A stretch of 63,122 nt of DNA, counting the filler, from Babesia bigemina (taxonomy: Eukaryota), in the NCBI RefSeq assembly GCF_000981445.1. It is 7 parts of 7 records of this genome, joined end to end, with 100 filler letters (N's around TTAATTAATTAA, not from the genome) between each part and the next. Parts side by side here need not be neighbours in the genome. Positions count along the whole stretch, not along the records: positions 1 to 7,284 come from NW_012237006.1; positions 7,385 to 15,946 come from NW_012237007.1; positions 16,047 to 27,012 come from NW_012237008.1; positions 27,113 to 35,478 come from NW_012237009.1; positions 35,579 to 40,817 come from NW_012237010.1; positions 40,918 to 52,146 come from NW_012237011.1; positions 52,247 to 63,122 come from NW_012237012.1. One strand, given 5' to 3'. Each line of letters begins with the position of its first letter. Positions within the stretch are counted from its first letter, which is position 1. Below the pieces are notes generated by a model. That model was given only the letters and a program-made list of their open reading frames with translations. It did not search any database and was not told the DNA's origin. Positions 1-63,122 of this stretch are shown in pieces. Both the position numbers and the translations under genes were made by a program.

Positions 1-692
1 CCACTCTACATCGCTCCCTTATCCACTCCACATCGCTACGTAACCCACTCCACATCGCTCCCTAACCCACTCCACATCGCTCCTTAACCCACTCCACATC
101 GCTCCTTTATCCACTCTACATCGCTCCTTTATCCACTCCACATCGCTCCTTTATCCACTCTACATCGCCCCTTATCCACTCTACATCGCCCCTTAACCCA
201 CTCTACATCGCTCCCTAACCCACTCTACATCGCTCCCTAACCCACTCTACATCGCTCCTTTACCCACTCTACATCGCCCCTTTATCCACTCTACATCGCC
301 CCTTAACCCACTCCACATCGCCCCTTAACCCACTCTACATCGCCCCTTTACCCACTCCCCATCGCTCCTTTATCCACTCTTCATCGCTCCTTAACCCACT
401 CTACATCGCTCCCTAACCCACTCTACATCGCTCCTTTACCCACTCCACATCGCTCCCTAACGCACTCTACATCGCCCCTTAACCCACTCTACATCGCTCC
501 CTAACCCACTCTACATCGCTCCCTAACCCACTCTACATCGCTCCCTAACCCACTCTACATCGCCCCTTTATCCACTCTACATCGCTCCTTAATCCACTCT
601 ACATCGCTCCTTTATCCACTCTACATCGCCCCTTTATCCACTCCACATCGCCCCTTTATCCACTCTACATCGCTCCCTAACCCACTCTACAT
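1..692 (+). repeat. 22-bp satellite S1, consensus CCACTC(T/C)ACATCGC(T/C)CC(C/T)T(T/A)A(C/T), upstream of g1
   Basis: Tandem 21-22-bp units read directly; C-rich on the sense strand of the following gene. Confidence 0.97.
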
Positions 693-1000
693 ACCTCGAA
701 TCACCTCGCCATAATACCGCTATGACCTCTATAAACCATCCTAATAACTTGTGCTTTGTCCCCCTTCACTTCCCTTCTTCCACCTCTTGCCACTGCCCTG
801 ACCATGTGCCGCCTAGTGAGCTTGACCAGAAATTTGACAAAATTTAGAACCCTAAAAATACCTCAAATAACAACCCTACTAACATCCTTAATAACCTTTG
901 CTCTGGCCTTCAGACTTTCCTCGGCTTCAACTCTGAGACTAAAGGCTACGACGGCACTGGGATTGTGTACTCCGACTTGGATAGGCTGTGTGACGGGGTG
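693..1000 (+). promoter_or_regulatory. Conserved short-type leader of g1 with uORF 722-847 (41 codons, TAG) and a +1-frame ORF ending at 1001
   Basis: gaat(t/c)acct(c/t)gcc...gctATGACCT block recurs at all seven visible 5' ends; TAG at 845-847 is in frame with the main ATG at 1001. Confidence 0.6.
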
Positions 1001-4000
1001 ATGGGATTTTTGAGTGGTGTTCTCAGTAACATCAAAGAGCATTTAGGGCAGCATAAAAATGAAATTAGCAATGCAATTAACACTCTTAACAAAAATAAAC
1101 ACGCCGGTAAAAAAAGGTTTTAATATTGCGATTGGAAGTGTGGTCGAAGGGGTGCGGGGGTATAATGGTAATGTAAAAGCTTCTAATGAAGCAGTGAATA
1201 CAGTAATCAACAAATTGAGGAGCGACATGACTAATATTAATAACATTTTAAAAAAATCGTATGAGACTGATGATGTCGCGAAAATTGACAAAAAAGTTGA
1301 GGAGTGTATCAGGCATGTTGCCGAATATGCAGCCGGTATGAGAAAGGAAAAAAATTACATTGAAGATCTCCAAAACGATTTACAAAACAAAATAAATAAC
1401 GCGGGTGAAATTATAAGTTATCAGGCTGCGCAACTAAAAGTTATTCACTCTAGGCAGCAGAAAAGCAAAGAGGCTGTAGAGACGTCTGTCACTGGCAAGA
1501 TTGATAACCTTAGAGACGAGGTAAAAGAGAACATCAAGAAAGAAGTTAAAAATCTCGTCGACCAATTGAAAGATAAAGTGAAGGCTATTTTGAAAAAGTT
1601 GGAAGAAATTAACGACAATCTGTGGAAATATGTTAAGGAGTTGGAAAAGTGGATTGAAAAAGCTGACAAAGATCTAAGCCAAGCGATCGGCAAGGCAAAT
1701 TCAATCGAGAAAAATAAGATTGGAGAGAATGATCAGAATAAGATAAAATCCGTTGTACAAGAAATTAACAAAGGATTTATCGGCGCGAGAGGGTTTGTGA
1801 AGCAAAAAGTTGGAGAAGCGCTGCAAGCTGTGAAAGATATGGACGAGGCGATTAAGAAGGATTTGAAGACAGTGAAAACTAGGATAATGGAGGAGATTTG
1901 GGGGCACGTTAACACGGAAATTAGGACGCCGTATGGTGGTTTGGAAGGGAAGGTTAAGGAGGGATTGTGGACGATAGAAGATGCAATTACTAGGCCGCTC
2001 GGCATGCTCGTAAGCAGCGCACGAAATTTCAAGGAATACTTCGAAGCGACAAAAACCGCGGTTTCGTTGGCTGTCAGTAAAGTCATGGCGGACTTAGAAA
2101 ATCTACAATTGCTTTCTAATATTGAAGATATTCAAAAGGGTGTCGCACCTCTTCTCAGTGCTGTTGGCGGAGGCGATCCTTTCAAAGACCTAAAAGGCTA
2201 TTTCAGCAATCTAACTACTAAAGTCATGACACCCTTAAGAGAGGTGTTGGATGCTGTTTCAAATGGTTTGGGGAATCTTAATGCAGTAGACAGGAAACAA
2301 CTGGAGGCCGCCTTTAGCAGTGTTAAAGAAGACTTTAGAAAGCAACTTAAAGAGATTGAAAAGGTTGTTGATGGCTTCGTTCTGAACCTCGATATAACGA
2401 AGATTCCGATCGGCGACATCGACATGAACAGTATTCCGAAACTCGAACTAACAAAATATGCTCAGCACGTTAAGAGTGTAACAAAAAAGCTTACAGGTCG
2501 TCCTGAACAATTAGAAAGAGTAGACGTTAAAAACTTACTCAAAGTCCTCCGTCATATTGCCTATGAAGTATCTTCTCACTCTCATCAGGTTGTACAGCAC
2601 GTTATGAATAAGATTCAAGAAAAACTTAGGACTGAAGTTGGCAATGTTGCTACAGCCATCAATGCTAAAGTGAACACAATTAAACAAGGTATAGATTATG
2701 GAATTCACGACAAAACATTCTCTTATGTTAGCGGAGACAATAACGAACACTCAAGAGGCTTGCAGGCGTTGGTTAAAAATTACGATCGAAATATTAAACA
2801 CGAGATCGACAGGTTTCAAAGTGATGTCATCCCAGATGCGTTTACGCATACAGATAGACTTCATAAGAGTGCGGAAAATTACGATTTTGGCAAAAAGCTC
2901 ATGACCTCTTTCAAAACCGCCTATGATGCGCTTGGATTTAAGCTTGAACAGGGCACATTTCAGAAAACTGTAGCTGACAAACTCGACCAGGAGATCGGTG
3001 GGGATGGCATGGCAGATGGAGGCGATGCATCTGAAAAAATATCTGCGCTTGCTGACCGAAAATTCACCAATTACAGAGGACAAGTTGACCAAGATAGCGT
3101 AGCGCTTTCTAAAGGTGACTTAGACAAGCTATCAGGCGCACTTCCAAATAAGATCAAGGAAATTGACGAGCACGGACTAAGCACCTTTAAAGGCAACCTG
3201 GGCGCGACTGATACTGACAAGGATGTGATAAAAAGTGGATACCTTAAAGATATCACAGACAATCTCACCAACCTCTTAAAAGAATTTTCCACCGCCGGCC
3301 AATTCATTAATCACTATCTAAACACACTGAAAACGGATATCGGTAAAGACAAGAGTAACGGTCTCAATGAAATAAAAAATAAACTTAAGCTCCTTATCAC
3401 CGGTGAAATAAAAGCAGCCACCAAGCTGGCCACCGACGTCTTAACTGGAGCCGACAAATTACGTGATAAATATGTTAGTCAAATTCATCAATACGTTGCC
3501 GAACAATCCTCATGCGCTACCAGAGATATTAACACGCAGGTGTGCAAGCAATATGTCTCCATCATACAGGATTTGCTATCAGACTTCGTTAACAAGGTTC
3601 AAAGCGAGCTTGGCCCACTCCCCAACGAGATCACAGCAGATGCCGGAAAAGTATATAAAGGCTTCATGGGAGTGTTACTAGAGAAAATAAAAAGCAGTGG
3701 ATTATCAGCTGCACTGGACGATTCCGCTACTCTACAGACACTGTCAGCCAGAGCGAAAACGTTTTTCACCGACTTGCCCAGAACTCTGAACACTAGGCCA
3801 AAAATCATGCCTTCGGATAGTCTTTCCAAACTGCAAACCAGACTAACACCTTTGTTCACTGACCTCACCAAATACGACAGTAAATTTGTAACGAAATTAG
3901 ACGCACTTAGTGGTCTACTCACCGAGATGCGTCCCGAATCGTACGCCCATCAGCACAACCCCCTGCTCGACTGTCTCAAAAAGGGCGTGCAGGGGATGTG

Positions 4001-6227
4001 CGAGGAGCTCGGCAAGGCGTACGTAAGCGTGTATGATAGCGAGACTTTCGGTGCTGAGCTAATAAAAAACCTCAAACATGTATCTAGCGTTGGTAAACTT
4101 GAAATAAAATATGATCTGACTGACGAAGGCACCAGGTTGTCTAAGGTGTTCCTCACGGTGCTCCGCACCATTGACGTTTCGCTTCATACGTTGAAATCCA
4201 ACTGCAGAGTTCTGCAAAAGAAACGAATCAACAGAGATACTGACATCGGCAGACTGTTCGCTGAAATGGGATATGTAGTTTCAAACTTTGATGAGCAAAA
4301 TGGCGAGCTGCAAGACAGAAGTGAAATGACCGGCGAGCATATCCTAGGCCGACTTATCGGTCGCAGTGGGAGAGTCTACAGCAGCCACGATGATAAAAAC
4401 TACGAAGGGGCACTAAAGGATCTCGTCACGCACCTCAATCGCTACTTCGAAGTGTGCCACTTCACCATCCTCCCTAGACCTAGGACACCTTGCAATGTTT
4501 ATGAAATGTTAGTATGGCTTACAGGCCTTCCTCACAATCCGGTTTACGACGCGCTATTAGAAGACGGTCTCAGCGCACCGTTTAAAGACCCGGCGAAGCA
4601 GACGAAGGAAGCGGGTGACGGCTTTGAGTTCACCGTGTTTGACCTCCAGACTTCACATATAGATGCTTACCCAAGTAACATCACCTACAAGAATACGGCT
4701 GCCACGATAAATCACATCTGTTCGAAAGCATACGACGTATTGGCCACCATCGTCGGACATGGCAACGCTTCTACCGTCTACGCTTGTGACTTCCCAAGCA
4801 ACACCCTCAATTTGAAATATCCCGCTGGCGGTGAGGACTGCCTAAATACGCTCCTCGATATCCTGCGTAGACTTTTGCCGCAGCTGCAATATTTGTTCCA
4901 CCGCTGTAACGTTACTGATACGTATTACGGCTGGCGAAATTGTAGGTACGGCAGGGACGTACCGACAGCCAAGTGGCCGTGTGTCGACCACTCAAGCGAC
5001 AAAGCAAAGCACGAAGCAACGTGCCAGACAAAGTGTCAAGCAAACACCCAACTACATTGTCAACCAACATCGCCGTTGATGTCTTATCTAAATGACTGTC
5101 TATCCGCTCATTTGCCGCATCAGATAGTGACGGTGGGTTGCAAGTCTGAATGTAAGACATGCCCTTCCAATAGCCCTGGAATGCCGTGCCGAATGCCTTT
5201 CGGATTTAGAGGATTTTCTGGGTCAACGAAGACAGGTATGGCTATATGTGAAAGCCTCAGGCTATTTTTGGGTAGCGGCCTAGTGTCGTCCCTTTTGTGC
5301 CTTATACCCAGGCCGCCGTCTACACTACCGGAGCACTTCAACTTTGCGTTGTCCCTCGTTGACAAGTGGAATGGCTCTGCCAGTCATGTTATAAAGGACG
5401 CTTTCGAGGCATCGATTGTCGGCAGTTCCATCGGCCTTTACAAGCAACCCAGCAGCTTCACCAAGGTGCTGAGTAATGCCTATGGCAGCCGTGAAAGTAC
5501 CCATGCACGAGAAAGCCATCCCATATCTACTCGAGCTGACTTATTAAGTCTGGCTAAAAAAGAATCTTGCATCTATTCAATTAGCGACAACGTCCATTGC
5601 GCTCCGTATCTGTCGTCGGTCTGTTCAGATTTCTATCACTACCTTGCCATAAAGCACGCCGACTTATATCTGTCCTGGGCAGTCTACTTGCCGTGGACAC
5701 TGTATAAGTATCTAAAAAGTTTACTCGATGCATTCTGTAATATTTCCTGTAAGGACTGGGAATGCAGCAGATGCACGCACGGCGACAAATGCAAACCGGG
5801 GAAGCATGGTGTAGGATACAGCTGTACTTGCAAAGCACTAGTACACTGTCGTGGCGTTATGAGCACATTCTACAGTTACGGATTCGCATTTGGCAACCCT
5901 CAAACACTGTTAGCCACGGATGGCAGGAGATATTGCCACAGTTTCTACAACCAGCTGAATAATGTCTTAAACTCTGTTTGTTTCAAGGACCTCCTCCAAA
6001 AGTGCGACGAATTCATTTCACCATCAGGCAGCCGTTCATATGGCTCAACGTGGCACTGTGGTCCCTCTCCCTCTTCTACCTTCATCTGCGTGATGGTTGG
6101 CAGGCTGGATGTGCTCCACATACGCTCACATCTGCGAACACCGTCGTCGCACAGGATAACGGCGCAGTCATTGTTGGCTGCAGCGCAAGTCGGAAGGCTT
6201 GCCAAGATATCGTATCTACAACCGTAA
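1001..6227 (+). CDS. ves1: VESA1-like variant erythrocyte surface antigen g1 (A-type tail); frameshifts near 1112, 6017 and 6081
   Basis: GYDGTGIVYSDLDRLCDGVMGFL upstream; 1722-aa ORF with PCxVYEMLxWL, SPLMSYLNDCL, GFRGFSG and RLDVLHIRSHL...LAKISYLQP; frameshifts inferred by comparison with g4. Confidence 0.8.
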
Positions 6228-6385
6228 TTGTAGTCACGTCTGTAATTCACTGTAACTCACGTAACTACTCACTTAGCGAATCACCTACTCACCTAACCGA
6301 CGAACGTAGTCTAATGTCTCGAATTACTCTAGCGGAAACCTGTGAACTAAATAGCACCTAGATTAAGTGATGACTAAACGACAAT

Positions 6386-6905
6386 GCAACGTGTTGACCT
6401 AACATCCAAGCTGAGTGCTAACCTAGCACCCAGGCAAAGTGCTGAGCTAGCAACCAGGCAAAGTGATAATCTAGCACCCAAACAAAGTGCTAACCTAGCA
6501 CCCAGGCAAAGTGCTAACCTAGCAACCAGGCAAAGTGGTAACCTAGCATCCAGGCAACGTGCTAAGCAAGCACGCAGGCAAAGTGCTAACCTAGCAACCA
6601 GGCAACGTGTTGATCTAGCACCCAGGCAACGTGCTAACCTAGCACTCAGGCAACGTGCTAAGCTAGCACACAAGCAAAGTGGTAAGCAGGCACCCAGGCT
6701 AAGTGGTAAGCTAGCAACCAGGCAAAGTGCTAAGCAGGCACCCAGGCTAAGTGGTAAGCTAGCACCCAGGCAATGTGCTGAGCTAGCAACCAGGCAAAGT
6801 GCTAAGTTAGCAACCTGGCAAAGTGCTAAGGTAGCACCCAGGCAATGTGCTGAGCTAGCAACCAGGCAAAGTGCTAAGCTAGCACGCAGGCAAAGTGCTA
6901 AGCTG
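6386..6905 (+). repeat. 24-bp 3' array (CAGGCAAAGTGCTAA(C/G)CTAGCA(A/C)C) after g1
   Basis: Tandem 24-bp units; 8-aa periodicity in ORF 6384..6920. Confidence 0.95.
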
Positions 6906-7284
6906 GCGGATGAACCGTAATTTGGTGGGTGTTGTAGCACGTTGATTGCCTGGTGCGTTGAGTTGTGCGTTGACAGTGAGAGGTGTCCGCGTTGCCCATT
7001 GAGTCAGTGTCACGTGAGGCTGGGTGATTGGTCGCTAACGTAGGCGGTCGTGAGGGCCGCGGCGGGTGACCTAAGTCGTGTGCTGCGAGTCACTGGCAGG
7101 GTGGCGTAATCCGCGCCGGCCTGGTTAAGTAGCATTTATAGGCAGCGATGTAGCGATTGTTAGTATCACATTTAGGCACTTAGCCGACACGCTCCGCCAG
7201 CATGGCGCCGATACCGCGGCTCGTAGCACGGTGCTGCCGCACTGTGGGAGTTGAGCGCACGGAGTCGCTGCAATTTTAATGGCG
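6906..7284 (+). other. Conserved non-repetitive element U, copy 1 (truncated by contig end)
   Basis: Near-identical to sequence starting at 25617 and at 33953. Confidence 0.8.
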
Positions 7285-7384: not shown

Positions 7385-7387
7385 GTC

Positions 7388-8189
7388 ATGTAGAGTGGAT
7401 AAGGGGCGATGTAGAGTGGGTTAAGGAGCGATGTAGTGTGGAGAAAGGGGCGATGTAGAGTGGGTTAGGGAGCGATGGAGAGTGGGTTAGGGAGCGATGT
7501 AGAGTGGATAAAGGGGCGATGTGGAGTGGGTAAAGGGGCGATGAAGGGTGGATAAAGGAGCGATGTAGAGTGGGTAAAGGGGCGATGTGGAGTGGATTAG
7601 GGAGCGATGTGGAGTGGATTAGGGAGCGATGTGGAGTGGGTAAAGGAGCGGTGTAGAGTGGGTTAGGAGCGATGTAGAGTGGGTTAAGGAGCGATGTAGA
7701 GTGGATAAAGGAGCGATGTAGAGTGGGTTAAGGGGCGATGTAGAGTGGGTAAAGGAGCGATGTAGAGTGGATAAAGGGGCGATGTAGAGTGGGTTAGGGA
7801 GCGATGTGGAGTGGGTTAAGGGACGATGTAGAGTGGATAAGGGGCGATGTAGAGTGGGTTAAGGAGCGATGTAGTGTGGAGAAAGGGGCGATGTAGAGTG
7901 GGTTAGGGAGCGATGTAGAGTGGGTTAAGGGGCGATGTGGAGTGGGTAAAGGGGCGATGTAGAGTGGATAAAGGGGCGATGTAGAGTGGGTTAGGGAGGG
8001 ATGTGGAGTGGGTTAAGGAGCGATGTAGAGTGGATAAAGGGGCGATGTAGAGTGGGTAAAGGGGCGATGTGGAGTGGGTAAAGGGGCGATGTGGAGTGGG
8101 TTAGGGAGCGATGTAGAGTGGATAAAGGAGCGATGTAGAGTGGGTAAAGGAGCGATGTGGAGTGGGTTAGGGAGCGATGTAGAGTGGAT
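7388..8189 (-). repeat. 22-bp satellite S2, downstream of g2 and presumably upstream of a missing next gene
   Basis: GCGATGTAGAGTGG units on the + strand. Confidence 0.97.
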
Positions 8190-8380
8190 GATAAATACCA
8201 CTTAGCTCACCATGACATCGCTGCCGTGACCATCAACTGTCATCGCTGCCGTGACCATCAACTGTCATCGCTGCCGTGACCATCAACTGTCATCGCTGCC
8301 GTAACCATCAACTGTCATCGCTGCCGTAACCATCAACTGTCATCGCTGCCGTAACCATCAACTGTCATCGCTGCCGTAAC
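8190..8380 (-). repeat. Adaptor: junction plus 25-bp repeat TGTCATCGCTGCCGT(G/A)ACCATCAAC, about 7 copies
   Basis: Read directly; related 20-bp versions at 46722, 52733 and 59208. Confidence 0.9.
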
Positions 8381-8384
8381 ACAA

Positions 8385-9232: not shown

Positions 9233-9379
9233 TTGTCGTTCACTCATCACTTAATCTCTACGCTATCTAGTTCACAGGTTGCCGCTAGAGTAATTCGAGA
9301 CATTAGACTACGTTTGTATGTTAGGTGAGTAGGTGAGCTATGGTAAGTGAGTTACTGTGAATTACAAATGTGACTACAA

Positions 9380-14590: not shown

Positions 14591-14619
14591 AGCAGTATTA
14601 TGGCGAGGTGATTCAAAGG

Positions 14620-46269: not shown

Positions 46270-46396
46270 TCGTACTCACGTGTCTACTATCTACACTCAC
46301 CTAGCATCTCACCTACTCACCTATACAACTAATTGTTGTCTAATGTTTTGAATCACTCACTCATCGTTGTACGTGATTGCTTGGTAGATTAACTGA

Positions 46397-52965: not shown

Positions 52966-53090
52966 TAGTTAACTATTACACAATCACATACAACGATTAA
53001 TGAGTGATTTAAAACATTAGATTACAATCCGTTAGATAGGTGAGTAGGTGATATGCTAGGTGAGTGTAGACAGTGAACATGTGAGTACGA

Positions 53091-56000
53091 TTATGGTTGC
53101 AGGTAAAACACTCTGTTAAGCTTGTTAACACGTGCGGCGGCAAGTAGCGATTGAGCAGCGATACGATGTGATGAGGGACTGTGCAAATGCGATTTGATGT
53201 GGAGCAGGTCTAGGCGGATGACCATGATGTGGATGAGGTACAGGAAAGAGAGGAGCCAGAGGGTTAGAACAGTAAGCATGAAAGGCCATCTGATACATAG
53301 TAGGAAGTCGTCGCATTTGTCGAAGAGGTCTCTGAAATATTGCGAGTGTAGCACGTCGTACAGCTGTTTGCAGAATTGGGAACACGTTTTACGCGTGCTT
53401 TTAGCGTTTAAGGTAGATGCTTCACCGAAGCAAAAACCGTACCTATACAATATGGGTGAGACACCTCTACACTGAACTATTGATGCACACTGACAATAAG
53501 GCGTCTTAGTCTTATCATCGCTGAGTCCATGCTGACCACGTCGGCATTTATCAGCGCGTAAACACGTGCGACATCCCCAATCAGCGCATAAGATATTGCA
53601 GAATTCGTCATACAGGCTCTTGAGGTATTTCCAGAAATCCCACGGCAGGTAGACAGCCCAGGAGAGGTAGGTTTTTGAATTCTTAAATGGTAGACATGAG
53701 TAGTAATCTTCACTGAGCGATAACATATAGGGAGTGCAGTATGCTTTCAGTGCAGGATCATTATATCCTGTTATCGAAAGACTGGATAACGCAGCGTGTG
53801 GAGGCATACGAACCTGAGTGAGATTAACAGGCCGTGGATCACCATACGCATTACGCAATGCTTCTGTAAGTTTTGTAGGTTTCTCATATAGTTCAATGGA
53901 GACGTTTGTAATTGCCTCCTCAAACGGCTCTTCGACACCTGTCTTACGCTTCTTGTTGTCGCTACCAACCCACCCAGCAACAAGTGATAACGTGAAACCG
54001 AAGTGTTCCGGTAACGTAGATGGCGTCTTAGTTTGCAGGCTAAATAGGACATTGAGTTTGCCGTTGTCAAAGAATTTGCCTAGCACGTCACTTATGTCTC
54101 TGCCTGCACGCTTGGTCCCGGAGAAACCTCGGAATCCTAGGGGAGTGAGACAGGGCATTCCAGGCGTGGATCTAGGGCAGGTACTACATTTCGCTTTGCA
54201 GCCAATGTCAGTCAACACGTGAGGTAAATGTCCGGGCAAGCAATCGTATAAGTAGGACATCAATGGCGATTTTGGTTGGCAATTTGGTTCGCACTTTGCT
54301 TGACCATTTGGTTGGCACGTTACTTTAGTGCTAGAGTGTTCGTTGCATGGCCAGTTGGTTGTCTGTACGTCTTTGCCATAATGGCAACCTGCCCACCCGT
54401 ACTCTCTCGCGGCGGTGCTGCACTGTGTCTCCAGGTATTTGAGCGGCGGGAACAATCTGCGGAGGATGTCGAGGAACATGTCAAGGCATTCCTCAGCCGA
54501 CGTCGGATATCTGAACTTGAGAGAGTTATTGCAGAAGTCTACGCCGTACGTTGTGTATTCGTCGCCGTGACCGATGATGCGAGTCAGCACGTCATGCGAT
54601 GTTGCACAAATATGGTTGATGGCAGAATGTATATGATCATATCGGATCTTACTCGGGAACACGTCCACGTAGTACGCTGTCAAATCGTCATATTCAGCAT
54701 CCAATTCCAATCCGTCGTCGCTCGCCTGTATTATCTTCTTCTTCGGCTTCTCCATCAGACCAGTGAAACCATCGCGCACAAATATCTCGTAAACCGAATT
54801 ATAATGCAAACCAGCGCACCAAACTAGCATCTCGTACACAGAACATGGATTACGTTTGGCAGTTAAAGATGCCATGTGGCCGAGAGTATAGTACGTTTCC
54901 AGGTGGCAATGGAGGCAGGCAAGTACATCAAGGACGTGGAACTTATCACTTTTCTTTTCTCTGCCGGTCTTCTCATCCTCGTTTGATTTGCACTTCAAAA
55001 GATGTGTTTTGATGTTTTCGACGTTCGTAAGTGCCTGCCTAATTTTTGCATGAATATGTGAACCCATCATCTGGTCACTACGCCTCAACTCGCCGTCCTG
55101 CTTATCCCTATTGGAAACAACGTAACCGCAATCACTTAAAAATGAACCAAGAACACTAATACGATCTATTTGTTTGGAATGCCAATCTAATTTGCATTTC
55201 TCTCTCAACACATCCAACTCCCCTTTCACCATCTCCACTATCGTCAGGCAGACCTTGGCGCAGTTGCGGCCCTCAGGGGTTAAATCGTACTTTTTCTCAG
55301 ATTTTTGTTTAAGAGCAGGAACAGCTTTTTTGGAGTCAGAATCTTCCACTTCCTTCAACAAAGCCCCGTTGAATCGTTTACCCGAGTACCTGTTCACGTA
55401 CGCGCGGCCGAGTTGCTCGGCGAATTTGGAGAGGCCGGCCTTGAGGGGGGCGAGGAGGGGGGAGGGGGAGTCGGCAAAAGATGAGGGATGTAAAGAGGTA
55501 AGAAGGGCATTAAGTGCATCCAATTTAATGTGAACTTCATGATTAAAATGCTGAGAGCCCATAAGCTCGCTGAGCAGAAAATGGAAGGCGGCTCGGGAAG
55601 GCTCCCATCTACGTTTCAACTTCTTGAAGTCTTCCTGACCATATACTTCAATCATCCAACGGTTGTACAAATCGCGTAACATTTGAGCGAAATATTTGAC
55701 AGTTTGTTCTTGCTCTGACAATTTAGGCTGATCGGTGTTTCTGAGTGTAGCCGACAGTTTTGTTGCGTGATCTTCAAAACATTGGATAAATTGTTTTTTT
55801 AATTTACTCAAAATTCCTTTAAGATGAGTCTCTTTATCAGTCTTTATCGTTCCTTCAATTTTCTGAAACTGCTCCTTAACGATTTTATGCAGGGCGGTGA
55901 CTTCTTGAGTTTTTCTTGCGGTGTAAAGGTCTCTGGTTTGTTGTTCCATTTCAGTGAAAGCAGAATCTATTTTAACTGTGACAGCAATGCGGAGTTTATT

Positions 56001-58247
56001 AAAGCACTTCTCGATTTCTCGAGGTGTATCCTTGAGTAGATTAGTGGCTCTCCTAATGCAGCTTGTAAGTTCTACAGCGACAGCTTCGACCTTACTTCTA
56101 ACGCTACCGACTTCACCACCAAGTGTCTCGATGTTCATCATTAGCTCATTCAAATCTGCGTAAACACTGCCTTTTTTGGTTGCGCTAGTACCAACGTTAT
56201 TTTCCAACAAGTCATTTATTTTTTCGTGAAGTTCATGAGCCAAACTTTCAAGGGCAGACTTACCCTGCGGTACACCTGTAGTTACGTGTGGACCATTCTG
56301 ACTTTGCAGTGCTGTAAGCGCCTGTTGAATTGGGAGTATTTGAGTATTAACTTTCAATTTAATTTTTTTTTGGAGTTCATCGATTGCGTTGTCCGCCGTG
56401 CTTTTCAGCAGCTTTGCAAGTTCGTCTTCCACGTCAACGGCGGTAGCGCTAATAAACCCTCGAATAGTATTCCCTAGATCAGTCGGTGCGGAGCCGATGA
56501 CTGTAGATGGGTTGGGAATTAGTTTCCTCTTAAGAGTTCCTGCTAGCCTCTTAACATCTGTTATTGCTTTCTCGACATTACCAATCTTGCAACTTTTCAA
56601 CGCAAACGAATTTAATTCGTTCCAAACTTGTCTCGCTTTGGATTGCAGCGCTACAAGGGTGGCTTGGAGGGCGAGCTTGAGATGTTGGTTGTCGTAAGTA
56701 GGTGGAGAAATATGCGAGGGAAGGGGAGGCAAGTTGGAAGGAAGGACGGAAGTGGACTGTTGTTGTTTCCACAACTTCTCATTGTTCTCAATTTTCTCTA
56801 ATATCTTATCACCCCTCCCTCCAAAACCCTCCCCAAGCTTCTCCATAAAGATACCGATACCTACAATGACAGCTTCAACATTCTCTTCGATGTTGTATGC
56901 AGATTTGATATTTACAGCATTGCCGGCTTTAGTAATTTCGTTTATAAATTCTTCTTTGATCGCTTCAATTATTACACCGCGCAATGTGTCGTTGTTGCCA
57001 TCTTTCATACGCTGCAGCGTAGTCTGTCTCAACTTTTCACTGTGCTTGTTCCACGTGATCCACCGTGTGAGCCATCCACTGACAACATCCTGCTTGAGAA
57101 TATCTTCCACCCAGTCACCGACTTTTTTCCCAAACTGATCCTTACCGCTGAACGTCCGAGCCCATTGCGCTACTAAATGAGCACTCTCATTCAAATAGCC
57201 GTTAATTCCATCGTTATTGCAGATAGTATCAGTTTCTTTCTGGATGGCGTTATAAATCTGATCGGGCAATATTTTCTCAACGTATCCTTCGACGTTTCGC
57301 CTAATTTTACTCTTAACATCTTCAACGACTTCACTCAACATTAATCTATCCTGTACCAATGCAGCGTCATTCGTCACTCGTGCCTTTACTCCTTGATCAG
57401 CTATACCAATCAACTCAATCTGATTCACTAACGCAACCACCTGTTTTTTAATCTCCGCCTTCTCAGACTGAACCTCCTTTTTAAGCGTGATAGCACTTTC
57501 CACAATAGGCGTTAAACCGCTTACAACTTTCGTATCGTAACTACTTTCTACTTTATGTATGCCGTAATTAACTGTTTTGAAGGCCTCAGTGAGATTGGTG
57601 TTGAGTGCTGTGAACAAATCATTAAATTGCGTCCCTTGCAAGCTGATTATTTGCTCATGCAAGGCCCCAACTTCATGCTTCAAATAGGCTTGGAGCATAT
57701 GTGAATAACGTAAAAAAGTTTTTTCCAAAAATGCTGTGATCTCAGCCCACTTCTTCGCAGCCAACTTGAACATTGCGTCGAGATCCGTGTTTCTTGCCGC
57801 CACCTTGAACGTCTCCGTTGCCTGCACCAGCAATGAAATGTTACATTTCAACTTACCTGATAGTGTAGGATCAACATTGTTTAAGGCGATTTTGGCGTCC
57901 GTTACCTTCCCATGATACCAATCTGCCCGGGTAGTCCAGTCGGCAATTTGCTTCGAAAGCTCATTATGTTTTTCATTTTCTATTGACGTTTTATCACTTT
58001 CAATATCTTTTCTCAATTGTTCAAGTGGATTTTTTAGTTCATTTATTTTCTCATTCAATTTCTTTTCATACCCCTCCAACCACTTCTTCACCGCGCCGAC
58101 AGACTCCGCAAGCCCTTCACGGCCGGAGCCAATATTTTTATTTACCTCTTCTAGTACTTCATTAAGTCTTTTATTAAAATGTTTGTCGTATGTTTCAACT
58201 TCATTTTCGTTTTTCACCGCACCAAGCACACCACTCAAAAATCCCAT
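53091..58247 (-). CDS. ves1: VESA1-like antigen g8 (B-type tail)
   Basis: MGFLSGVLGAVKNENEV start; family motifs; TM; ...AARVNKLNRVFYLQP. Confidence 0.88.
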   Translation of the reverse strand: MGFLSGVLGAVKNENEVETYDKHFNKRLNEVLEEVNKNIGSGREGLAESVGAVKKWLEGYEKKLNEKINELKNPLEQLRKDIESDKTSIENEKHNELSKQIADWTTRADWYHGKVTDAKIALNNVDPTLSGKLKCNISLLVQATETFKVAARNTDLDAMFKLAAKKWAEITAFLEKTFLRYSHMLQAYLKHEVGALHEQIISLQGTQFNDLFTALNTNLTEAFKTVNYGIHKVESSYDTKVVSGLTPIVESAITLKKEVQSEKAEIKKQVVALVNQIELIGIADQGVKARVTNDAALVQDRLMLSEVVEDVKSKIRRNVEGYVEKILPDQIYNAIQKETDTICNNDGINGYLNESAHLVAQWARTFSGKDQFGKKVGDWVEDILKQDVVSGWLTRWITWNKHSEKLRQTTLQRMKDGNNDTLRGVIIEAIKEEFINEITKAGNAVNIKSAYNIEENVEAVIVGIGIFMEKLGEGFGGRGDKILEKIENNEKLWKQQQSTSVLPSNLPPLPSHISPPTYDNQHLKLALQATLVALQSKARQVWNELNSFALKSCKIGNVEKAITDVKRLAGTLKRKLIPNPSTVIGSAPTDLGNTIRGFISATAVDVEDELAKLLKSTADNAIDELQKKIKLKVNTQILPIQQALTALQSQNGPHVTTGVPQGKSALESLAHELHEKINDLLENNVGTSATKKGSVYADLNELMMNIETLGGEVGSVRSKVEAVAVELTSCIRRATNLLKDTPREIEKCFNKLRIAVTVKIDSAFTEMEQQTRDLYTARKTQEVTALHKIVKEQFQKIEGTIKTDKETHLKGILSKLKKQFIQCFEDHATKLSATLRNTDQPKLSEQEQTVKYFAQMLRDLYNRWMIEVYGQEDFKKLKRRWEPSRAAFHFLLSELMGSQHFNHEVHIKLDALNALLTSLHPSSFADSPSPLLAPLKAGLSKFAEQLGRAYVNRYSGKRFNGALLKEVEDSDSKKAVPALKQKSEKKYDLTPEGRNCAKVCLTIVEMVKGELDVLREKCKLDWHSKQIDRISVLGSFLSDCGYVVSNRDKQDGELRRSDQMMGSHIHAKIRQALTNVENIKTHLLKCKSNEDEKTGREKKSDKFHVLDVLACLHCHLETYYTLGHMASLTAKRNPCSVYEMLVWCAGLHYNSVYEIFVRDGFTGLMEKPKKKIIQASDDGLELDAEYDDLTAYYVDVFPSKIRYDHIHSAINHICATSHDVLTRIIGHGDEYTTYGVDFCNNSLKFRYPTSAEECLDMFLDILRRLFPPLKYLETQCSTAAREYGWAGCHYGKDVQTTNWPCNEHSSTKVTCQPNGQAKCEPNCQPKSPLMSYLYDCLPGHLPHVLTDIGCKAKCSTCPRSTPGMPCLTPLGFRGFSGTKRAGRDISDVLGKFFDNGKLNVLFSLQTKTPSTLPEHFGFTLSLVAGWVGSDNKKRKTGVEEPFEEAITNVSIELYEKPTKLTEALRNAYGDPRPVNLTQVRMPPHAALSSLSITGYNDPALKAYCTPYMLSLSEDYYSCLPFKNSKTYLSWAVYLPWDFWKYLKSLYDEFCNILCADWGCRTCLRADKCRRGQHGLSDDKTKTPYCQCASIVQCRGVSPILYRYGFCFGEASTLNAKSTRKTCSQFCKQLYDVLHSQYFRDLFDKCDDFLLCIRWPFMLTVLTLWLLSFLYLIHIMVIRLDLLHIKSHLHSPSSHRIAAQSLLAAARVNKLNRVFYLQP

Positions 58248-58556
58248 CACCCCGTCACACAGCCTATCCAGGTCAGAGTACACAATGCCCTGGCCAGTGT
58301 AGCCTTTGGAATCTTTGTTGAAGCCGAGGAATGTTTCGAGGCCAGAACAGAGGTTATTAAGGATGTTAGTAAAGTTGTTATTTGAGGTATTTTTAAGGTT
58401 TTAGATTTTGTCAAATTTATTGCCAAGCTCCCTAAGCGGCACATGGTCAGGGCAGTGGCAAGAGGTGGAAGAAGGGAAGGGAAGGGTGACAAGGCACAAG
58501 TTATTGCTATGGTTAATAGAGGTCATAGCGGTATTATGGCGAGGTAATTCAAGGGT
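58248..58556 (-). promoter_or_regulatory. Short-type leader of g8 with uORF 58526-58401 (TAA at codon 42)
   Basis: Homologous to the g1 leader. Confidence 0.6.
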
Positions 58557-59207
58557 TGTAGAGTGGGTAAAGGGGCGATGTAGAGTGGGTTAAGGGGGCG
58601 ATGTGGAGTGGGTAAAGGGGCGATGTAGAGTGGGTAAAGGGGCGATGGAGAGTGGGTAAAGGGGCGATGGAGAGTGGGTAAAGGGGCGATGTAGAGTGGA
58701 TTAGGGAGCGATGTAGAGTGGGTAAGGAGCGATGTAGAGTGGATAAGGGAGCGATGTGGAGTGGGTTAGGGAGCGATGTAGAGTGGGTTAGGGAGCGATG
58801 TAGAGTGGATTAGGGAGCGATGTAGAGTGGGTTAGGGAGCGATGTAGAGTGGATAAAGGGGCGATGTAGAGTGGGTAAAGGGGCGATGTAGAGTGGGTAA
58901 AGGGGCGATGTAGAGTGGGTTAGGGAGCGATGTAGAGTGGGTTAGGGAGCGATGTAGAGTGGGTTAGGGAGCGATGAAGAGTGGGTTAAGGGGCGATGTA
59001 GAGTGGATAAAGGCGCGATGTAGAGTGGATAAAGGCGCGATGTAGAGTGGATTAGGGAGCGATGTAGAGTGAATAAAGGGGCGATGTAGAGAGGGTTAAG
59101 GGGCGATGTAGAGTGGATAAAGGGGCGATGTAGAGTGGGTAAAGGGGCGATGAAGAGTGGGTTAGGGAGCGATGTAGAGTGGATTAAGGGGCGATGTAGA
59201 GTGGATA
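58557..59207 (-). repeat. 22-bp satellite S9 (complete, about 30 units) upstream of g8
   Basis: Tandem units bounded on both sides. Confidence 0.97.
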
Positions 59208-59650
59208 ATAATCACTACTTAGGTCACCACTGTCATCGCTGCCGTGACCATGTCATCGCTGCCGTAACCACTAACTTGGTCAGCACTTTGGTCATGGCAT
59301 TGGTCAGCACTTTGGTCATGGCATTGGTCAGCACTTTGGTCATGGCATTGGTCAGCACTTTGGTCATGGCATTGGTCAGCAAATTGGGCAGCACTTTGGT
59401 CAGCACTTTGGTCACCACGTTGGTCATGGCATTGGTCAGATGCTTGTTCACCACTGTCATCGCTGCAGTGTCCACTAACTTGGCCTGGTGCTTGGTCACC
59501 ACTTTGGTCAGCAACTTGGTCAGCACTTTGGTCATGGCATTGGTCAGCACTTTGGTCAGCACTTTGGTCAGCACATAGGTCAACACTTTGGTCATGGCAT
59601 TGGTCAACACGTTGGTCAGCACATTGGGCAGCACATTGGTGAACACTTTA
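59208..59650 (-). repeat. 20-bp adaptor repeats plus 12-bp 3' array after g9
   Basis: Same organisation as 52733-52965. Confidence 0.92.
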
Positions 59651-59773
59651 GTTAACTATTACACAATCACATACAACGGTTAATGAGTGATTCAAAACAT
59701 TATAGAACAATTAGTTGTATAGGTGAGTAGGTGATATGCTAGGTGAGTGTAAACATTAAACACGTGAGTACGA

Positions 59774-62700
59774 TTATGGTTGCAGGTAAAACACTCTGTT
59801 AAGCTTGTTAACACGCGCAGCAGCAAGTAGCGATTGAGCAGCAATCCTATGACTCGACGGACTATGCAAATGCGATTTGATGTGGAGGAGATCGAGGCGG
59901 ATGACCATGATGTGGATGAGGTACAACAAAGAGAGGAGCCAGAGGGCGACGTTGAGCCAGATGAAGGGGGCGCGGATGGTGAAGAGGAATTTGTCACACT
60001 CTTCAAATAATTTTGTGAAGTAGTCCGACTTCAATACATTTTTCAATTGCTTGCAGAAATCGGCACATGTGTTCGGATAATTCTCGTTTTGCAATTTAGA
60101 TGGGTCACCGAAGGAGAACCCATAACTGTACAACGTTGGAGCTACGCCTCTGCAGTCAACAATAGAGTGGCATTGACAATTAGGTTGTTTGGAGGCGTCA
60201 CTTATTGATCCATGTGCTCCACGTTTGCACTTGTCTCCTCTTAAGCAACCACGACAGCCCCAGTCTTGACAGTATATGTTACAGAATGCGTCATACAGAT
60301 CTTTAAGGTACATCCAAAAGTTCCACGGGAGGTATACAGCCCATGACAGGTAAAGATTTGAATGCTTTTTGCCGAGGTATCGATAACAGTCGACAGATAA
60401 ATTGGCAAGGTACGGAGCGCATTCGAGTTCCAAATTGATTTTCCCTTTGCAGCTATGTGAAGTTGTAAGATTCTTGAGGTGCGCATATTCACATTTGCCA
60501 TGCTCGGGATTCGGCGAACCATATGCGTCTGTTAACGCTTTGGTTACTGTGGATTGGTCAGTACAGAGGTTAATAGTTTGCTCGTAGATGGATGCGGCAA
60601 ACGTGTCTCGAAGCGCATGAGAGTCGTAATTATACGGTCTAGATGTTGCATTAATACCATTCGCCAGCGCCAACGTAAAACCGAAGTGCTCCGGCAACGT
60701 TGAAGGCGGCTTAGGAATAAGCGTGAATAGACCCGTAAGATGCTTGATGTTGATGAATTTGGTCAGCACTTCACATATGTCCTTACCCATACGTGTGGGT
60801 CCGGAGAAACCTTTGAATCCAAGAGGCGTTAGGCAAGGCTTACTTTTTTTAGAAGTTGAGCAATTGGCACACTCGTACTTACAGCCAATTTTAGTAAGTT
60901 GATGAGGTAAATGACCCGGCAAGCAATCGTTCAGGTAACTCATCAATGGCGATGTTGGTTGGCAATCTACTTGGCACGTTACTTCGCACTTTGCTTGGCA
61001 CGTTGGTTTACACTTTGCTTGGCAGTTTGATTCATCATCTGGTTCGTCGGATGGATGAACTTTGCATGGCCATTTGGCTGTCATGATTCCCTTGCCGTAC
61101 TTGCACGATTGCCAGCCGTTGAGCCCATTGCTGAGCTTGCACTGACTATACAAATATTGTAATGTTGGCAACATTCGACGAAGGATGTCTAGGAGCATAT
61201 CGAGGCAGTCTTCCCCGTTTTGGGGGTAATTGAAATTCATGTAATTGTTGGAATAGTCTACAGCGTATGTCGTGAATTCGTCGCCGTGACCGGCAATTGC
61301 GCAAAGGACGTCATATGAAGTCGAACATATATGCGTCACGGCTGCCCACAGTTCATCATATGATACGTCACGTGGGTAGGCTTCCAGGGATACGGAGCGT
61401 GCATCAACCAATGACACCTTGAACTCCCCTCCGTCTGCCTGTCGTTCTACTGCTAATACGTCGCCATGTTCTCCCTCATCTTCTCTACCTCTTTTATATA
61501 GCTCTTCCAAAACGTTCATGATGGCTACACTTAGCTTACTTTGATGTACCGGATTGTGCGTTAGTCCCGAGAGCCAAGCGAGCATCTCGTACACGGAGCA
61601 TGGCTGTCTCTTGGAGGTGAATGTTGAGAGATGGCACAAGTCGTTGTATGTCTCCAAATAGTCGAAAAGTATCTCGAGTGCACGTTTGGCATTTTTATCG
61701 GAGTGATAAATATGCTGCTTATCGCCTACAAGAAGATCGTCGTGGATATATTGACCCGTGCACCCCGTCTTATTCCTCAGGTGACCTTCATGGGAATCAT
61801 GCGACTTGGAAACTTTGTAACCGCATTTGTTCAAAAATTGACCAAATGAGTTTTCATCTTCGTTACTGTCTTGCAAATAAATTTGTCTTCCTCTCCAGGC
61901 GTTTGGAGCATTCTGCTTTAACTCGTCTAACCCGGCTTTCAGAGTCACCAAAATCGTCAAAAATACCTTCGACAAATTTCTTCCGGCATCCGTCAATTTT
62001 TCACCTTTACCATCCTCATTTGAGACCAATTTACCCATATTCACCTTCTCCTCATACCCCTCATACCTACTCACATACACCCGCTCCATCTGCTCGACAA
62101 ACCCCTGCAGCCCCGCTCTGACCGCATCGAGCAGCTCCGGGTGCCGGGGGTTGGCGAAGGCGGAGGGGTGGAGAGAGGTGAGGGAGGAGGAGAGGGTGGA
62201 GAGGAGGGAGGTGAATTGGTGATCGTAATTATAGTTTTTAGACTGTTTTGCATCAATTAAATTAGTAAGTAAGTTGTTAAGATCTTCATTAATTTTTTTT
62301 ACATTTTTGGATTCATCAGTGTCAGCAAATATGGCTGCCGCACTCCTAGGCTGTGGCGGAATTTTTATTTCGTCTTCAATGTACGGTAAAATGTTTGTTA
62401 CGTAGGCATGGAATTTGGATGACAGGTCCTTGAATATTTTAATAGTGAATGCTTGTTTTAGTGGTGCAAGCAATGACGCCGACGTCTGAAATTCTGGAAG
62501 CGCAAATGTTATTACAGTCACCTTGATTCCATATATCGTCCTCAAAAAACCTTTAACACCCGTTTTTTTATCTTTTTCAATTACGATCTTAATCTCCTCA
62601 GTTTTGTAATGCACTATCGCTTTTAACTTCTCAAACACATCGCTGATTTTGGCGTTATACTGCTTTCGGGCTTCATTTTGGATTGCTTTAGTACTTCTGT

Positions 62701-63121
62701 TAACTTCTTGAGACACAAACATTTCGATGTCCCAAATACATTGCTTGCATTGTGAGTTTAGGGAATTTCTGATTCTTTGCGCTTCGTCAATCAAGGGAGC
62801 CAACTTTGTTTGTTGTAGCTCACGAAGATCATGCATTAAGTTTTTTAGCTTGCGGTCGAAGACATCATTTTTCAGTGTACCCAAATTCCCTGTGAGAAAC
62901 TCGCTTGAATTTTTAACAGCATCGCAGAGGCTGTTGAGTTTCTCCAAAACATCCAAAATATGACCGCTTTTCAACCTTTCAACGTTGTTTTTGATTTCCT
63001 CAAAACCCTTTGTAAAAACAGATTCAACACCTTCAGTAAGTCCATTTTTCAGCTCGGTCAGCAGCGTATGTACACCTTTCTTCCTATCCTGAGAACCGTC
63101 GAAATACTTGCGCCCATCTTG
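59774..63121 (-). CDS. ves1: VESA1-like antigen g9, 5' part outside the window (B-type tail)
   Basis: Frame stays open from 62974 to the window edge; PCSVYEMLAWL, SPLMSYLNDCLPGHLPH, TM, VFYLQP. Confidence 0.87.
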   Translation of the reverse strand, partial: QDGRKYFDGSQDRKKGVHTLLTELKNGLTEGVESVFTKGFEEIKNNVERLKSGHILDVLEKLNSLCDAVKNSSEFLTGNLGTLKNDVFDRKLKNLMHDLRELQQTKLAPLIDEAQRIRNSLNSQCKQCIWDIEMFVSQEVNRSTKAIQNEARKQYNAKISDVFEKLKAIVHYKTEEIKIVIEKDKKTGVKGFLRTIYGIKVTVITFALPEFQTSASLLAPLKQAFTIKIFKDLSSKFHAYVTNILPYIEDEIKIPPQPRSAAAIFADTDESKNVKKINEDLNNLLTNLIDAKQSKNYNYDHQFTSLLSTLSSSLTSLHPSAFANPRHPELLDAVRAGLQGFVEQMERVYVSRYEGYEEKVNMGKLVSNEDGKGEKLTDAGRNLSKVFLTILVTLKAGLDELKQNAPNAWRGRQIYLQDSNEDENSFGQFLNKCGYKVSKSHDSHEGHLRNKTGCTGQYIHDDLLVGDKQHIYHSDKNAKRALEILFDYLETYNDLCHLSTFTSKRQPCSVYEMLAWLSGLTHNPVHQSKLSVAIMNVLEELYKRGREDEGEHGDVLAVERQADGGEFKVSLVDARSVSLEAYPRDVSYDELWAAVTHICSTSYDVLCAIAGHGDEFTTYAVDYSNNYMNFNYPQNGEDCLDMLLDILRRMLPTLQYLYSQCKLSNGLNGWQSCKYGKGIMTAKWPCKVHPSDEPDDESNCQAKCKPTCQAKCEVTCQVDCQPTSPLMSYLNDCLPGHLPHQLTKIGCKYECANCSTSKKSKPCLTPLGFKGFSGPTRMGKDICEVLTKFINIKHLTGLFTLIPKPPSTLPEHFGFTLALANGINATSRPYNYDSHALRDTFAASIYEQTINLCTDQSTVTKALTDAYGSPNPEHGKCEYAHLKNLTTSHSCKGKINLELECAPYLANLSVDCYRYLGKKHSNLYLSWAVYLPWNFWMYLKDLYDAFCNIYCQDWGCRGCLRGDKCKRGAHGSISDASKQPNCQCHSIVDCRGVAPTLYSYGFSFGDPSKLQNENYPNTCADFCKQLKNVLKSDYFTKLFEECDKFLFTIRAPFIWLNVALWLLSLLYLIHIMVIRLDLLHIKSHLHSPSSHRIAAQSLLAAARVNKLNRVFYLQP

Positions 63122-63122
63122 C

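What the first reader, a model, noticed from the sequence alone, without database searches (positions are those of the whole stretch)
1..63122. Stereotyped repeat-bounded cassette around every ves gene, like a VSG-style archive
Seen: across independent contigs the order is fixed and co-oriented. It runs 22-bp satellite, conserved leader, ves CDS, conserved 3' block, 24- or 12-bp array, then either adaptor and next satellite (after g2, g6, g8, g9) or element U (after g1, g3, g4; U leads to a Cys-rich gene in g3 and g4). Known: B. bovis ves1 varies by segmental gene conversion into a locus of active transcription, and T. brucei VSG donors are bounded by upstream 70-bp repeats and a conserved 3' end. 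Inference: these repeats are the homology arms or silencing marks of an antigen archive. I do not know of this grammar being described for ves genes.
Basis: partly seen in the sequence, partly recalled or inferred. Interest (0 to 1): 0.85.

Follow-up and report, generated by a model that had tools for sequence, protein, structure and literature searches.

The report
Headless Babesia surface-antigen gene archive
In this cattle blood parasite (closest relatives are named Babesia bigemina), surface-antigen genes sit head to tail between fixed DNA repeats and have lost their normal front end, so they likely form a spare-parts library that is copied into a few complete genes to change the parasite's antigen.

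Summary
The repeat grammar is real: 7 of 7 visible 5' ends and 7 of 7 visible 3' ends follow it, and its main junctions also appear in contigs of public runs. The genes are ves1b-like. In public B. bigemina records the head occurs in 31 chromosome-3 proteins but only 2 unplaced-contig proteins, against about 160 unplaced family members; large genes at chromosome ends all point to the centromere. One chromosome-3 gene shares about 700 identical residues with a headless copy. Best reading: a two-tier system in which satellite-partitioned telomeric cassettes likely feed a few full-length loci through shared coding blocks, while the repeats likely organise, silence and homogenise the arrays rather than serve as the 5' arm. 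It works more like Pneumocystis msg-I than like VSG. Silence, direction of transfer and breakpoints are not shown; published peptides also match array copies. Not found in six literature searches. New variant of a known kind.

The parts
1..692 (+). 22-bp satellite (S22) before g1; C-rich on the gene's sense strand; cut by the contig end
693..772 (+). 80-nt leader of g1
773..6227 (+). g1, headless ves1b-like copy, class A tail; in-frame stop before the conserved block; frame breaks near 1110, 6015 and 6080
6228..6413 (+). 3' block, class A
6414..6904 (+). 24-bp array (R24)
6905..7284 (+). element U, cut by the contig end
7388..8187 (-). S22 downstream of g2 (start of the next cassette)
8188..8384 (-). 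adaptor (25-bp units) and short linker
8385..9218 (-). R24 after g2
9219..9379 (-). 3' block, class A
9380..14538 (-). g2, headless ves1b-like copy, class A tail; the only copy whose leader ATG opens the ves frame
14539..14618 (-). leader of g2
14619..15946 (-). S22 before g2
16047..18790 (+). S22 before g3 (at least 125 units)
18791..18870 (+). leader of g3
18871..24876 (+). g3, joins the ves1b head profile at column 17-18; class A tail
24877..25029 (+). 3' block, class A
25030..25615 (+). R24 after g3
25616..26130 (+). element U
26131..26442 (+). 73-76-bp repeats, each holding a 33-36-nt GT-AG intron-like segment
26456..26998 (+). Cys-rich single-transmembrane gene; 36 relatives, all named B. 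bigemina
27113..27485 (+). S22 before g4
27486..27568 (+). leader of g4; other copies in public runs continue differently after about 27566-27568
27569..33310 (+). g4, joins the head profile at column 15; body closest to g6, tail class A
33311..33456 (+). 3' block, class A
33457..33951 (+). R24 after g4
33952..34465 (+). element U
34466..34710 (+). 73-76-bp intron-like repeats
34720..35178 (+). second Cys-rich single-transmembrane gene, different C-terminus
35272..35478 (+). lone ves 3' tail (class B) and start of a 3' block; exception to the grammar
35579..40817 (-). g5, fills its contig; both ends out of view
40918..41359 (+). S22 before g6
41360..41439 (+). leader of g6
41440..46269 (+). 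g6, headless; in-frame stop before the conserved block; hybrid tail followed by class B flank
46270..46397 (+). 3' block, class B
46398..46708 (+). 12-bp array (R12)
46709..46806 (+). adaptor (20-bp units) and linker
46807..47110 (+). complete S22 array, 14 units
47111..47190 (+). leader of g7
47191..52146 (+). g7, headless; frame breaks near 50600-50670 and 51300-51340; cut by the contig end
52247..52733 (-). S22 downstream of g8
52734..52820 (-). adaptor and linker
52821..52966 (-). R12 after g8
52967..53090 (-). 3' block, class B
53091..58475 (-). g8, headless; in-frame stop before the conserved block; class B tail
58476..58555 (-). leader of g8
58557..59208 (-). complete S22 array, 30 units
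59209..59275 (-). adaptor and linker
59276..59649 (-). R12 after g9, with one adaptor-like unit inside
59650..59773 (-). 3' block, class B
59774..63122 (-). g9, 3' two-thirds of a ves1b-like copy; cut by the window end

Best explanation
These are head-to-tail ves1b-like cassettes that lack the conserved N-terminus and are each bounded by a 22-bp satellite and a 12- or 24-bp array, and they likely form a mostly untranslated telomeric donor library that would be copied by gene conversion into a small set of full-length, head-bearing ves1b genes. Shown: the grammar, the missing head, the open bodies, the homogenised flanks, the two-tier split among public proteins, mosaic bodies. Taken from published tables: chromosome-end position and centromere-ward polarity of large genes of this kind. 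Inferred: the arms toward expressed genes are the conserved 5' coding block and the transmembrane tail, which both tiers share; the repeats serve array-to-array exchange and probably silencing or telomere clustering. The best candidate recipients are the two head-bearing proteins on unplaced contigs (P0176, P0177) and chromosome-3 loci BBBOND_0310230 and BBBOND_0312140.
For: Head profile from 15 full-length relatives: g3 and g4 join it at columns 15-18, g1, g2, g6, g7, g8 only at about 142-147 of 219, and no DCPEN, CPENL or ENLRE word occurs in any frame of the window, although the whole upstream spacers of g7 and g8 are in view. Five of 7 have no open in-frame Met before the conserved block. 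That block shows coding-type constraint (166 synonymous to 141 non-synonymous codon differences; leader 17 to 65) and is as alike between tiers as within them (0.77 against 0.77 and 0.79; 6 full-length and 31 array proteins). Seven of 9 bodies are open for 1,115-2,014 codons at about 23-44% identity over their long pairwise matches. A head-only search found 36 B. bigemina proteins: 31 on the 3.52-Mb chromosome, 2 on other chromosome pieces, 2 true heads on unplaced contigs, 1 leader-type weak hit; B. ovata 37 of 40 on its 3.70-Mb contig. 161 entries of the published ves1b-containing cluster carry accessions of the series that two checked rows place on unplaced contigs. Tails are class A or B in 62 of 64 array-type proteins but in 1 of 31 chromosome-3 ones. 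All 27 large chromosome-end genes seen in a published table point to the centromere (only 5 confirmed as ves1b-like). Chromosome-3 protein P0195 is identical to headless P0109 in seven successive 100-residue windows, with other array copies best on either side; P0176 has a 95 of 100 match to array copy P0082; P0177 has a class A tail and array-type best hits in 16 of 19 windows. Full-length and array bodies intermix on a quick tree (7 label changes, 8.6 shuffled, 3 forced by strong branches). S22 units are as alike between arrays as within (0.876 and 0.871, 323 units). ves1b loci keep orthologous content between strains in only 0-3.3% of cases (PMC4066756 Table 2).
Against: Silence is not shown. 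In the published proteome of another strain, peptides match chromosome-end proteins too, one (BBBOND_0300010, iBAQ 11,090) above the paper's dominant VESA1B (8,525). Most full-length genes exchange among themselves: pairs sharing 100 or more rare 12-mers are 8 of 561 within the full-length set, 19 of 2,628 within arrays, but 1 of 2,482 between tiers, and the nine first full-length genes have best array matches of only 49-61%. Array-type best hits are expected in about two-thirds of windows from database make-up alone. The P0195-P0109 match has no direction and could be an assembly duplicate. g2 and g3 do have an open in-frame Met. N-termini of public proteins rest on gene models. No DNA around any full-length gene was seen.
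Confidence: 0.55

Rival explanations
1. By-product: a ves1b unit was amplified in subtelomeres by unequal crossover and spent or truncated copies accumulate there; the grammar is shared descent and the arrays donate little.
For: Fixed order and co-orientation follow from tandem duplication alone; large shared tracts are mostly within tiers; g1 and g7 are broken and four leaders carry the same in-frame stop; coding-type constraint in the 5' block could be inherited from translated ancestors.
Against: Seven of 9 bodies stay open despite deep divergence; all 8 copies whose 5' part is in view keep the same 5' block while truncation points vary; cross-tier tracts exist; B. ovata shows the same split of head-bearing genes.
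Confidence: 0.2
2. The cassettes are real genes, transcribed in place from the leader region and translated from the conserved internal Met into a shorter VESA1b, switched epigenetically like upsB var genes next to rep20.
For: Open bodies, conserved leader (85%), peptides matching end-array proteins, low blood-stage reads on two unplaced family members and two end-array genes (1-5 CPM), satellite on the telomere side of centromere-facing genes as for upsB var (PMC3898907).
Against: The most constrained block lies upstream of the first usable Met in 5 of 7 copies; leader changes are mostly non-synonymous; only 2 genes of the chromosome-3 right-end tag range, and none of the chromosome-2 left-end range, pass the expression filter of a published RNA table (another strain, so weak).
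Confidence: 0.13
3. One reading: an unseen expression site also carries the 22-bp satellite, supplies promoter and head from upstream by splicing, and cassettes move in by conversion anchored in the satellite and the 3' arrays, as with VSG 70-bp repeats.
For: S22 and R24 are fully homogenised across arrays; S22 holds most of the window's long-loop G-quadruplex motifs, which are also enriched near B. bovis ves loci (PMC9047050); g3 and g4 share an in-phase acceptor-like site just after the retained head fragment.
Against: No acceptor position is shared by all seven; g6 has none between the stop and the block; full-length proteins with their own head exist in about 34 copies, so a spliced head is not needed.
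Confidence: 0.12

Closest known systems
Pneumocystis jirovecii msg-I (UCS and CRJE)
   Same: Silent subtelomeric copies lack the constant 5' part, begin with a conserved junction element shared with the expressed locus, are mostly open frames and have conserved flanks (PMC10622565 passages).
   Different: There the promoter and 5' part are single-copy and the junction is 33 bp; here about 34 head-bearing genes exist, the shared block is about 35-47 codons, truncation points vary, and satellites separate the cassettes.
Trypanosoma brucei VSG archive (70-bp repeats, conserved 3' end)
   Same: Upstream repeat plus conserved C-terminal end around a hypervariable body; both are said to aid transposition (PMC6152948 passages).
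   Different: Here the cassette has no usable start and no shared acceptor, so satellite-anchored transfer would not yield a full protein; about 70% of VSG are broken, against 2 of 9 bodies here.
Babesia bovis ves1 locus of active transcription
   Same: Same gene superfamily; segmental gene conversion from silent genes, tracts of 109 bp on average; G-quadruplex motifs near ves loci (PMC9047050).
   Different: B. bovis genes are mostly divergent alpha/beta pairs, 75% interstitial (PMC4066756); here they are head-to-tail, headless and repeat-bounded.
Plasmodium falciparum upsB var genes and rep20 (TARE6)
   Same: Subtelomeric antigen genes transcribed toward the centromere with a satellite on the telomere side; rep20 can silence a var promoter and is thought to tie DNA to telomere clusters (PMC3898907).
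   Different: var genes are complete and switch in place; here the satellite recurs before every cassette and the genes are headless.
Borrelia burgdorferi vls silent cassettes and vlsE
   Same: Silent cassettes converted into an expression site (search listing and abstract start of PMC2632889; cassette truncation is recalled).
   Different: Bacterial, one small locus; here 5-6-kb cassettes at many chromosome ends.

Membership tests
Babesia ves1 / BbigVes1b | Conserved C-terminal transmembrane and cytoplasmic domain | tested here: met
   top 120 of 312 hits are B. bigemina and B. ovata family members; tail present in g1-g6, g8, g9 (disrupted in g1, cut in g5)
Babesia ves1 / BbigVes1b | Conserved N-terminal head (LTDCPENLRE motif) of full-length members | tested here: not met
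   absent in 7 of 7 window copies with a visible 5' end
Babesia ves1 / BbigVes1b | Match to a curated VESA Pfam model | tested here: inconclusive
   no such match for 10 window proteins nor for full-length relatives
VSG-type archive cassette | Repeat array upstream of each silent gene | tested here: met
   7 of 7
VSG-type archive cassette | Conserved 3' end | tested here: met
   83-90% in the last 180 coding bases and 87% in the 3' block within class
VSG-type archive cassette | Same repeat upstream of the expressed gene | not testable with these tools
   no genome held; no DNA around full-length genes
VSG-type archive cassette | Transfer from the repeat onward yields a translatable gene | tested here: not met
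   5 of 7 have no open start before the block and no shared acceptor
VSG-type archive cassette | Conversion tracts end in the repeats | not testable with these tools
   needs switched lines
Pneumocystis msg-I type system | Silent copies lack the constant 5' part | tested here: met
Pneumocystis msg-I type system | Conserved junction element in silent copies and in the expressed type | tested here: met
   protein level only: 47-residue block 0.77 identical between tiers
Pneumocystis msg-I type system | Single-copy promoter and 5' part | tested here: not met
   about 34 head-bearing B. bigemina proteins; a single special recipient among them is not excluded
B. bovis LAT-type locus | Divergent gene pair around a bidirectional promoter | tested here: not met
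   g6-g7 and g9-g8 are head to tail
upsB var / rep20 arrangement | Satellite on the telomere side of centromere-facing genes | tested here: inconclusive
   27 of 27 large end genes face the centromere in a published table; their satellites were not seen, one has the leader peptide
upsB var / rep20 arrangement | Each gene complete and switchable in place | tested here: not met

The most novel reading that the evidence does not exclude
Babesia bigemina runs a Pneumocystis-style switch: one or very few special head-donating ves1b loci (the type seen in P0176 and P0177) are rewritten from a library of over 150 promoterless cassettes, each insulated by a telomere-like G-rich satellite at chromosome ends, with a second Cys-rich membrane family stored in the same cassette frame. 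This would be the first promoterless antigen archive in Apicomplexa.
Probability: 0.35. Interest if true: 0.87.

Novelty: new variant of a known kind. Interest (0 to 1): 0.72.

Why it matters
How B. bigemina varies its VESA1, and where its expression site lies, is open: the genome paper inferred gene conversion from phylogeny but described neither the repeats nor headless copies in the parts I read, and counted 80 ves1b genes. If this reading holds, most of the repertoire is an uncounted donor library filed as hypothetical proteins, the recipients can be named from one short motif, and the question becomes testable with a complete assembly and long-read transcripts. It would also show B. bigemina and B. 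bovis solving antigenic variation with different genome layouts, and explains what the standard diagnostic PCR amplifies.

Tried and rejected
No whole genome is held, so repeat distribution away from ves genes was not tested. An exact scan of metagenome contigs with a 26-base satellite pattern found nothing. Three look-ups in earlier findings returned nothing. The run search gave 4 runs, no RNA holder listed. Pfam gave only weak coiled-coil matches. The protein atlas gave no hit above 0.86 for the Cys-rich protein. My first idea that only chromosome-3 genes are expressed (18 of 18 ves1b-labelled proteome rows, 14 of them in the head list) was dropped when end-array proteins filed as hypothetical proved to have peptides too. 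The published RNA table does not separate the tiers: 1 of 5 full-length genes queried was listed. The idea that the 24-bp array derives from the coding repeat was not supported; a 9-mer test was weak for both arrays. Coding roles for the arrays and leader were rejected on non-synonymous excess. Adaptor-satellite foldback is weak (z -1.2 to -2.8). Six motifs were absent from the one B. caballi supplement held. The careful tree did not finish; the quick tree was used. Figures of all papers, the B. ovata GFF and bioRxiv supplements were not seen and could show these repeats.


Full report
What the window is. It is seven contigs joined by artificial linkers. Nine long reading frames encode ves1b-like proteins: the best 120 of 312 relatives of g4's C-terminal part are the window's own protein, 73 proteins named Babesia bigemina and 46 named B. 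ovata, filed as hypothetical. No genome is held, so everything beyond the window comes from public proteins, four laid runs and paper tables.

The grammar. Searches confirm it. S22 then an 80-nt leader precede 7 of 7 genes with a visible 5' end. A 3' block then an array follow 7 of 7 with a visible 3' end, in two linked classes: class A tail, block A and the 24-bp array (g1-g4); class B block and the 12-bp array (g6, g8, g9). Adaptor and the next S22 follow g2, g6, g8, g9; U follows g1, g3, g4 and leads through 73-76-bp repeats to a Cys-rich membrane gene in g3 and g4. One lone ves tail (35272-35432) breaks the rule. Flanks are 85-87% identical while gene middles sit at the shuffled baseline. 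S22 and R24 units are as alike between arrays as within, which points to continuing exchange or a recent common origin. Listed contigs from public runs bridge S22-leader (X1, X4), block-R24 (X1, X3) and R24-U (X1, X4); loose ends show adaptor letters before S22 (X1), 12-bp-array letters after the block that follows the Cys-rich gene (X1, X3), and three different continuations after the leader (X1, X2, X4) (tables are cut, contigs are short). Fixed order by itself is only what tandem duplication gives.

Fifteen of the 120 relatives start with a conserved head containing LTDCPENLRE. A profile of these matches g3 and g4 only from column 15-18, and g1, g2, g6, g7, g8 only from about column 142-147 of 219; the motif's words occur in no frame of the window, though the full spacers before g7 and g8 are present. 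The leader's ATG opens the ves frame only in g2; g1, g6 and g8 meet an in-frame stop, g3, g4 and g7 are out of frame; 5 of 7 have no open Met before a 35-codon block that all eight visible copies keep. That block shows coding-type constraint and is shared equally with full-length genes. No splice acceptor is common to all seven. Yet 7 of 9 bodies are open for 1,115-2,014 codons; g1 and g7 have frame breaks, which may include sequencing errors.

Two tiers. Among the first hits, 9 of 9 chromosome-3 proteins outside the right-end array had the head, against 0 of 8 chromosome-end and 0 of 56 unplaced ones. A head-only search, limited to 1,032-3,285 residues, avoids that sample's bias: 31 of 36 B. 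bigemina hits lie on the 3.52-Mb chromosome, none with a tag in its right-end array, and only 2 true heads lie on unplaced contigs; in B. ovata 37 of 40 lie on one 3.70-Mb contig. The ves1b-containing cluster of PMC5660447 Table S2 lists 161 B. bigemina entries of the accession series that two checked rows place on unplaced contigs (parts 1-2 of 61 read). Coordinates in PMC4066756 Table S1 show 27 large genes at five chromosome ends all facing the centromere (14 at 3R, 5 at 2L, 4 at 3L, 2 at 1R, 2 at 4L; the listing was cut, 5 are confirmed ves1b-like, the rest inferred from size and place). If they carry S22 as here, its G-rich strand with TTAGGG words runs toward the telomere (inference).

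Exchange. Within the window body type and tail class are uncoupled (g4 has a g6-like body and a class A tail; g2 and g5 share a 2-kb stretch at 80%). Full-length and array bodies intermix on a quick tree of 73 rows. Between tiers, large shared tracts are rare (1 of 2,482 pairs against 8 of 561 and 19 of 2,628 within tiers), but that one is striking: chromosome-3 protein P0195 equals headless P0109 over seven 100-residue windows with other array copies best on each side. P0176 and P0177 share an unusual head, sit on small unplaced contigs and have array-like bodies, P0177 with a class A tail; P0186 has a class B tail. These are the candidate recipients. Direction is not shown and assembly duplication is not excluded.

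Expression evidence cuts both ways. All 18 proteome rows labelled ves1b are chromosome-3 genes, 14 in the head list, but end-array proteins filed as hypothetical have peptides too, one above the dominant VESA1B. The strain differed from the reference, so such peptides fit either conversion or expression in place. A published RNA table lists only 2 genes of the right-end tag range, at 1-2 CPM, but also only 1 of 5 full-length genes queried.

Mechanism. Most likely (0.55) a headless donor library feeding a few full-length loci through the shared 5' block and tail. A transfer starting in S22 would replace a recipient's head with a start-less leader, so S22 is unlikely to act as the VSG 70-bp repeat does; a role in array exchange, silencing or telomere clustering, as reported for rep20 and in line with H3K9me3 on subtelomeric vesa families of Babesia MO1 (bioRxiv 10.1101/2024.01.17.575932 passages), is inferred only. 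Rivals: by-product (0.2), expression in place (0.13), strict VSG version (0.12).

Literature. Searches found no description of these repeats or of headless ves1b arrays. Seen: PMC4066756 (Results, Discussion, second half of Methods, supplement legends, table rows; it says analogous flanking motifs may exist and names the C-terminus as a possible annealing point); passages of PMC5660447, PMC10463595, PMC6630957, PMC9047050, PMC10622565, PMC6152948, PMC10975891, PMC9806345, PMC10471129, PMC3979951, PMC3898907 and the MO1 preprint; table rows of PMC5660447 and PMC9806345. Figures and subscription papers were not seen. Verdict: real feature, new variant of a known kind, interest 0.72.

Noticed in passing
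window 919-995, 14317-14393, 28051-28127, 40569-40645, 41586-41662, 47333-47409, 58253-58329: Two of the four primers of the standard B. bigemina SpeI-AvaI diagnostic PCR match the conserved 5' ves block in 7 and 8 copies with 2-4 mismatches; the other two match one place each, weakly. The assay's target is likely this multicopy ves1b block, which would explain its cross-reaction with B. ovata.
   Followed up: partly
window 25616-26998 and 33952-35271: U leads to a Cys-rich single-transmembrane family seen only in B. bigemina (36 hits, near-invariant C-terminus), with members two tags from both dominant VESA1B loci of the genome paper. Its flanks are covered deeply and its middle barely in public runs, and other copies run on into the 12-bp array, so it looks like a second cassette type.
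   Followed up: partly
window 26131-26442 and 34466-34710: The 73-76-bp repeats each hold a 33-36-nt GT-AG segment of intron-like form alternating with about 40 nt, seven in all; possibly repeated untranslated or alternative first exons.
   Followed up: partly
window 46398-46708, 52821-52966, 59276-59649 against 44992-45049, 51142-51190, 54271-54325: The 12-bp array resembles the four-residue coding repeat about 1,220-1,275 bases before the stop: a profile scored p at most 0.01 there in g3, g4, g6, g8 and in the matching part of g7, at another place in g9, and not in g1, g2, g5.
   Followed up: yes
PMC9806345 Table 3 and DataSheet 1: Two blood-stage genes listed as unknown function (BBBOND_0000700, BBBOND_0005840) belong to the ves1b-containing cluster of PMC5660447, although the paper reports no differential VES expression.
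   Followed up: partly
P0004, P0008, P0014, P0025, P0052, P0068, P0078, P0084, P0093: Several B. ovata models are double-length or begin with what looks by eye like an out-of-frame ves tail, suggesting head-to-tail arrays there too; none of 46 shows the B. bigemina leader peptide.
   Followed up: no
window 8216-8380, 46725-46789, 52751-52816, 59226-59272, near 7140: Adaptor and U carry an inverted copy of the satellite's core word; predicted foldback is weak.
   Followed up: partly
window 6228-6413, 24877-25029, 33311-33456, 46270-46397: Both 3' block classes repeat a short word that reads like a splice donor on the opposite strand; unexplained, could mark an antisense transcript from U.
   Followed up: no
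BBBOND_0300080 and BBBOND_0400060: Full-length genes sit at the inner edge of two chromosome-end arrays, the first facing the opposite way.
   Followed up: no
window 6374-7003, 8380-9270, 25013-25714, 33439-34050: The 24-bp arrays keep one open frame on each strand with no indels, but changes are about 90% non-synonymous, so they are not read as genes.
   Followed up: yes
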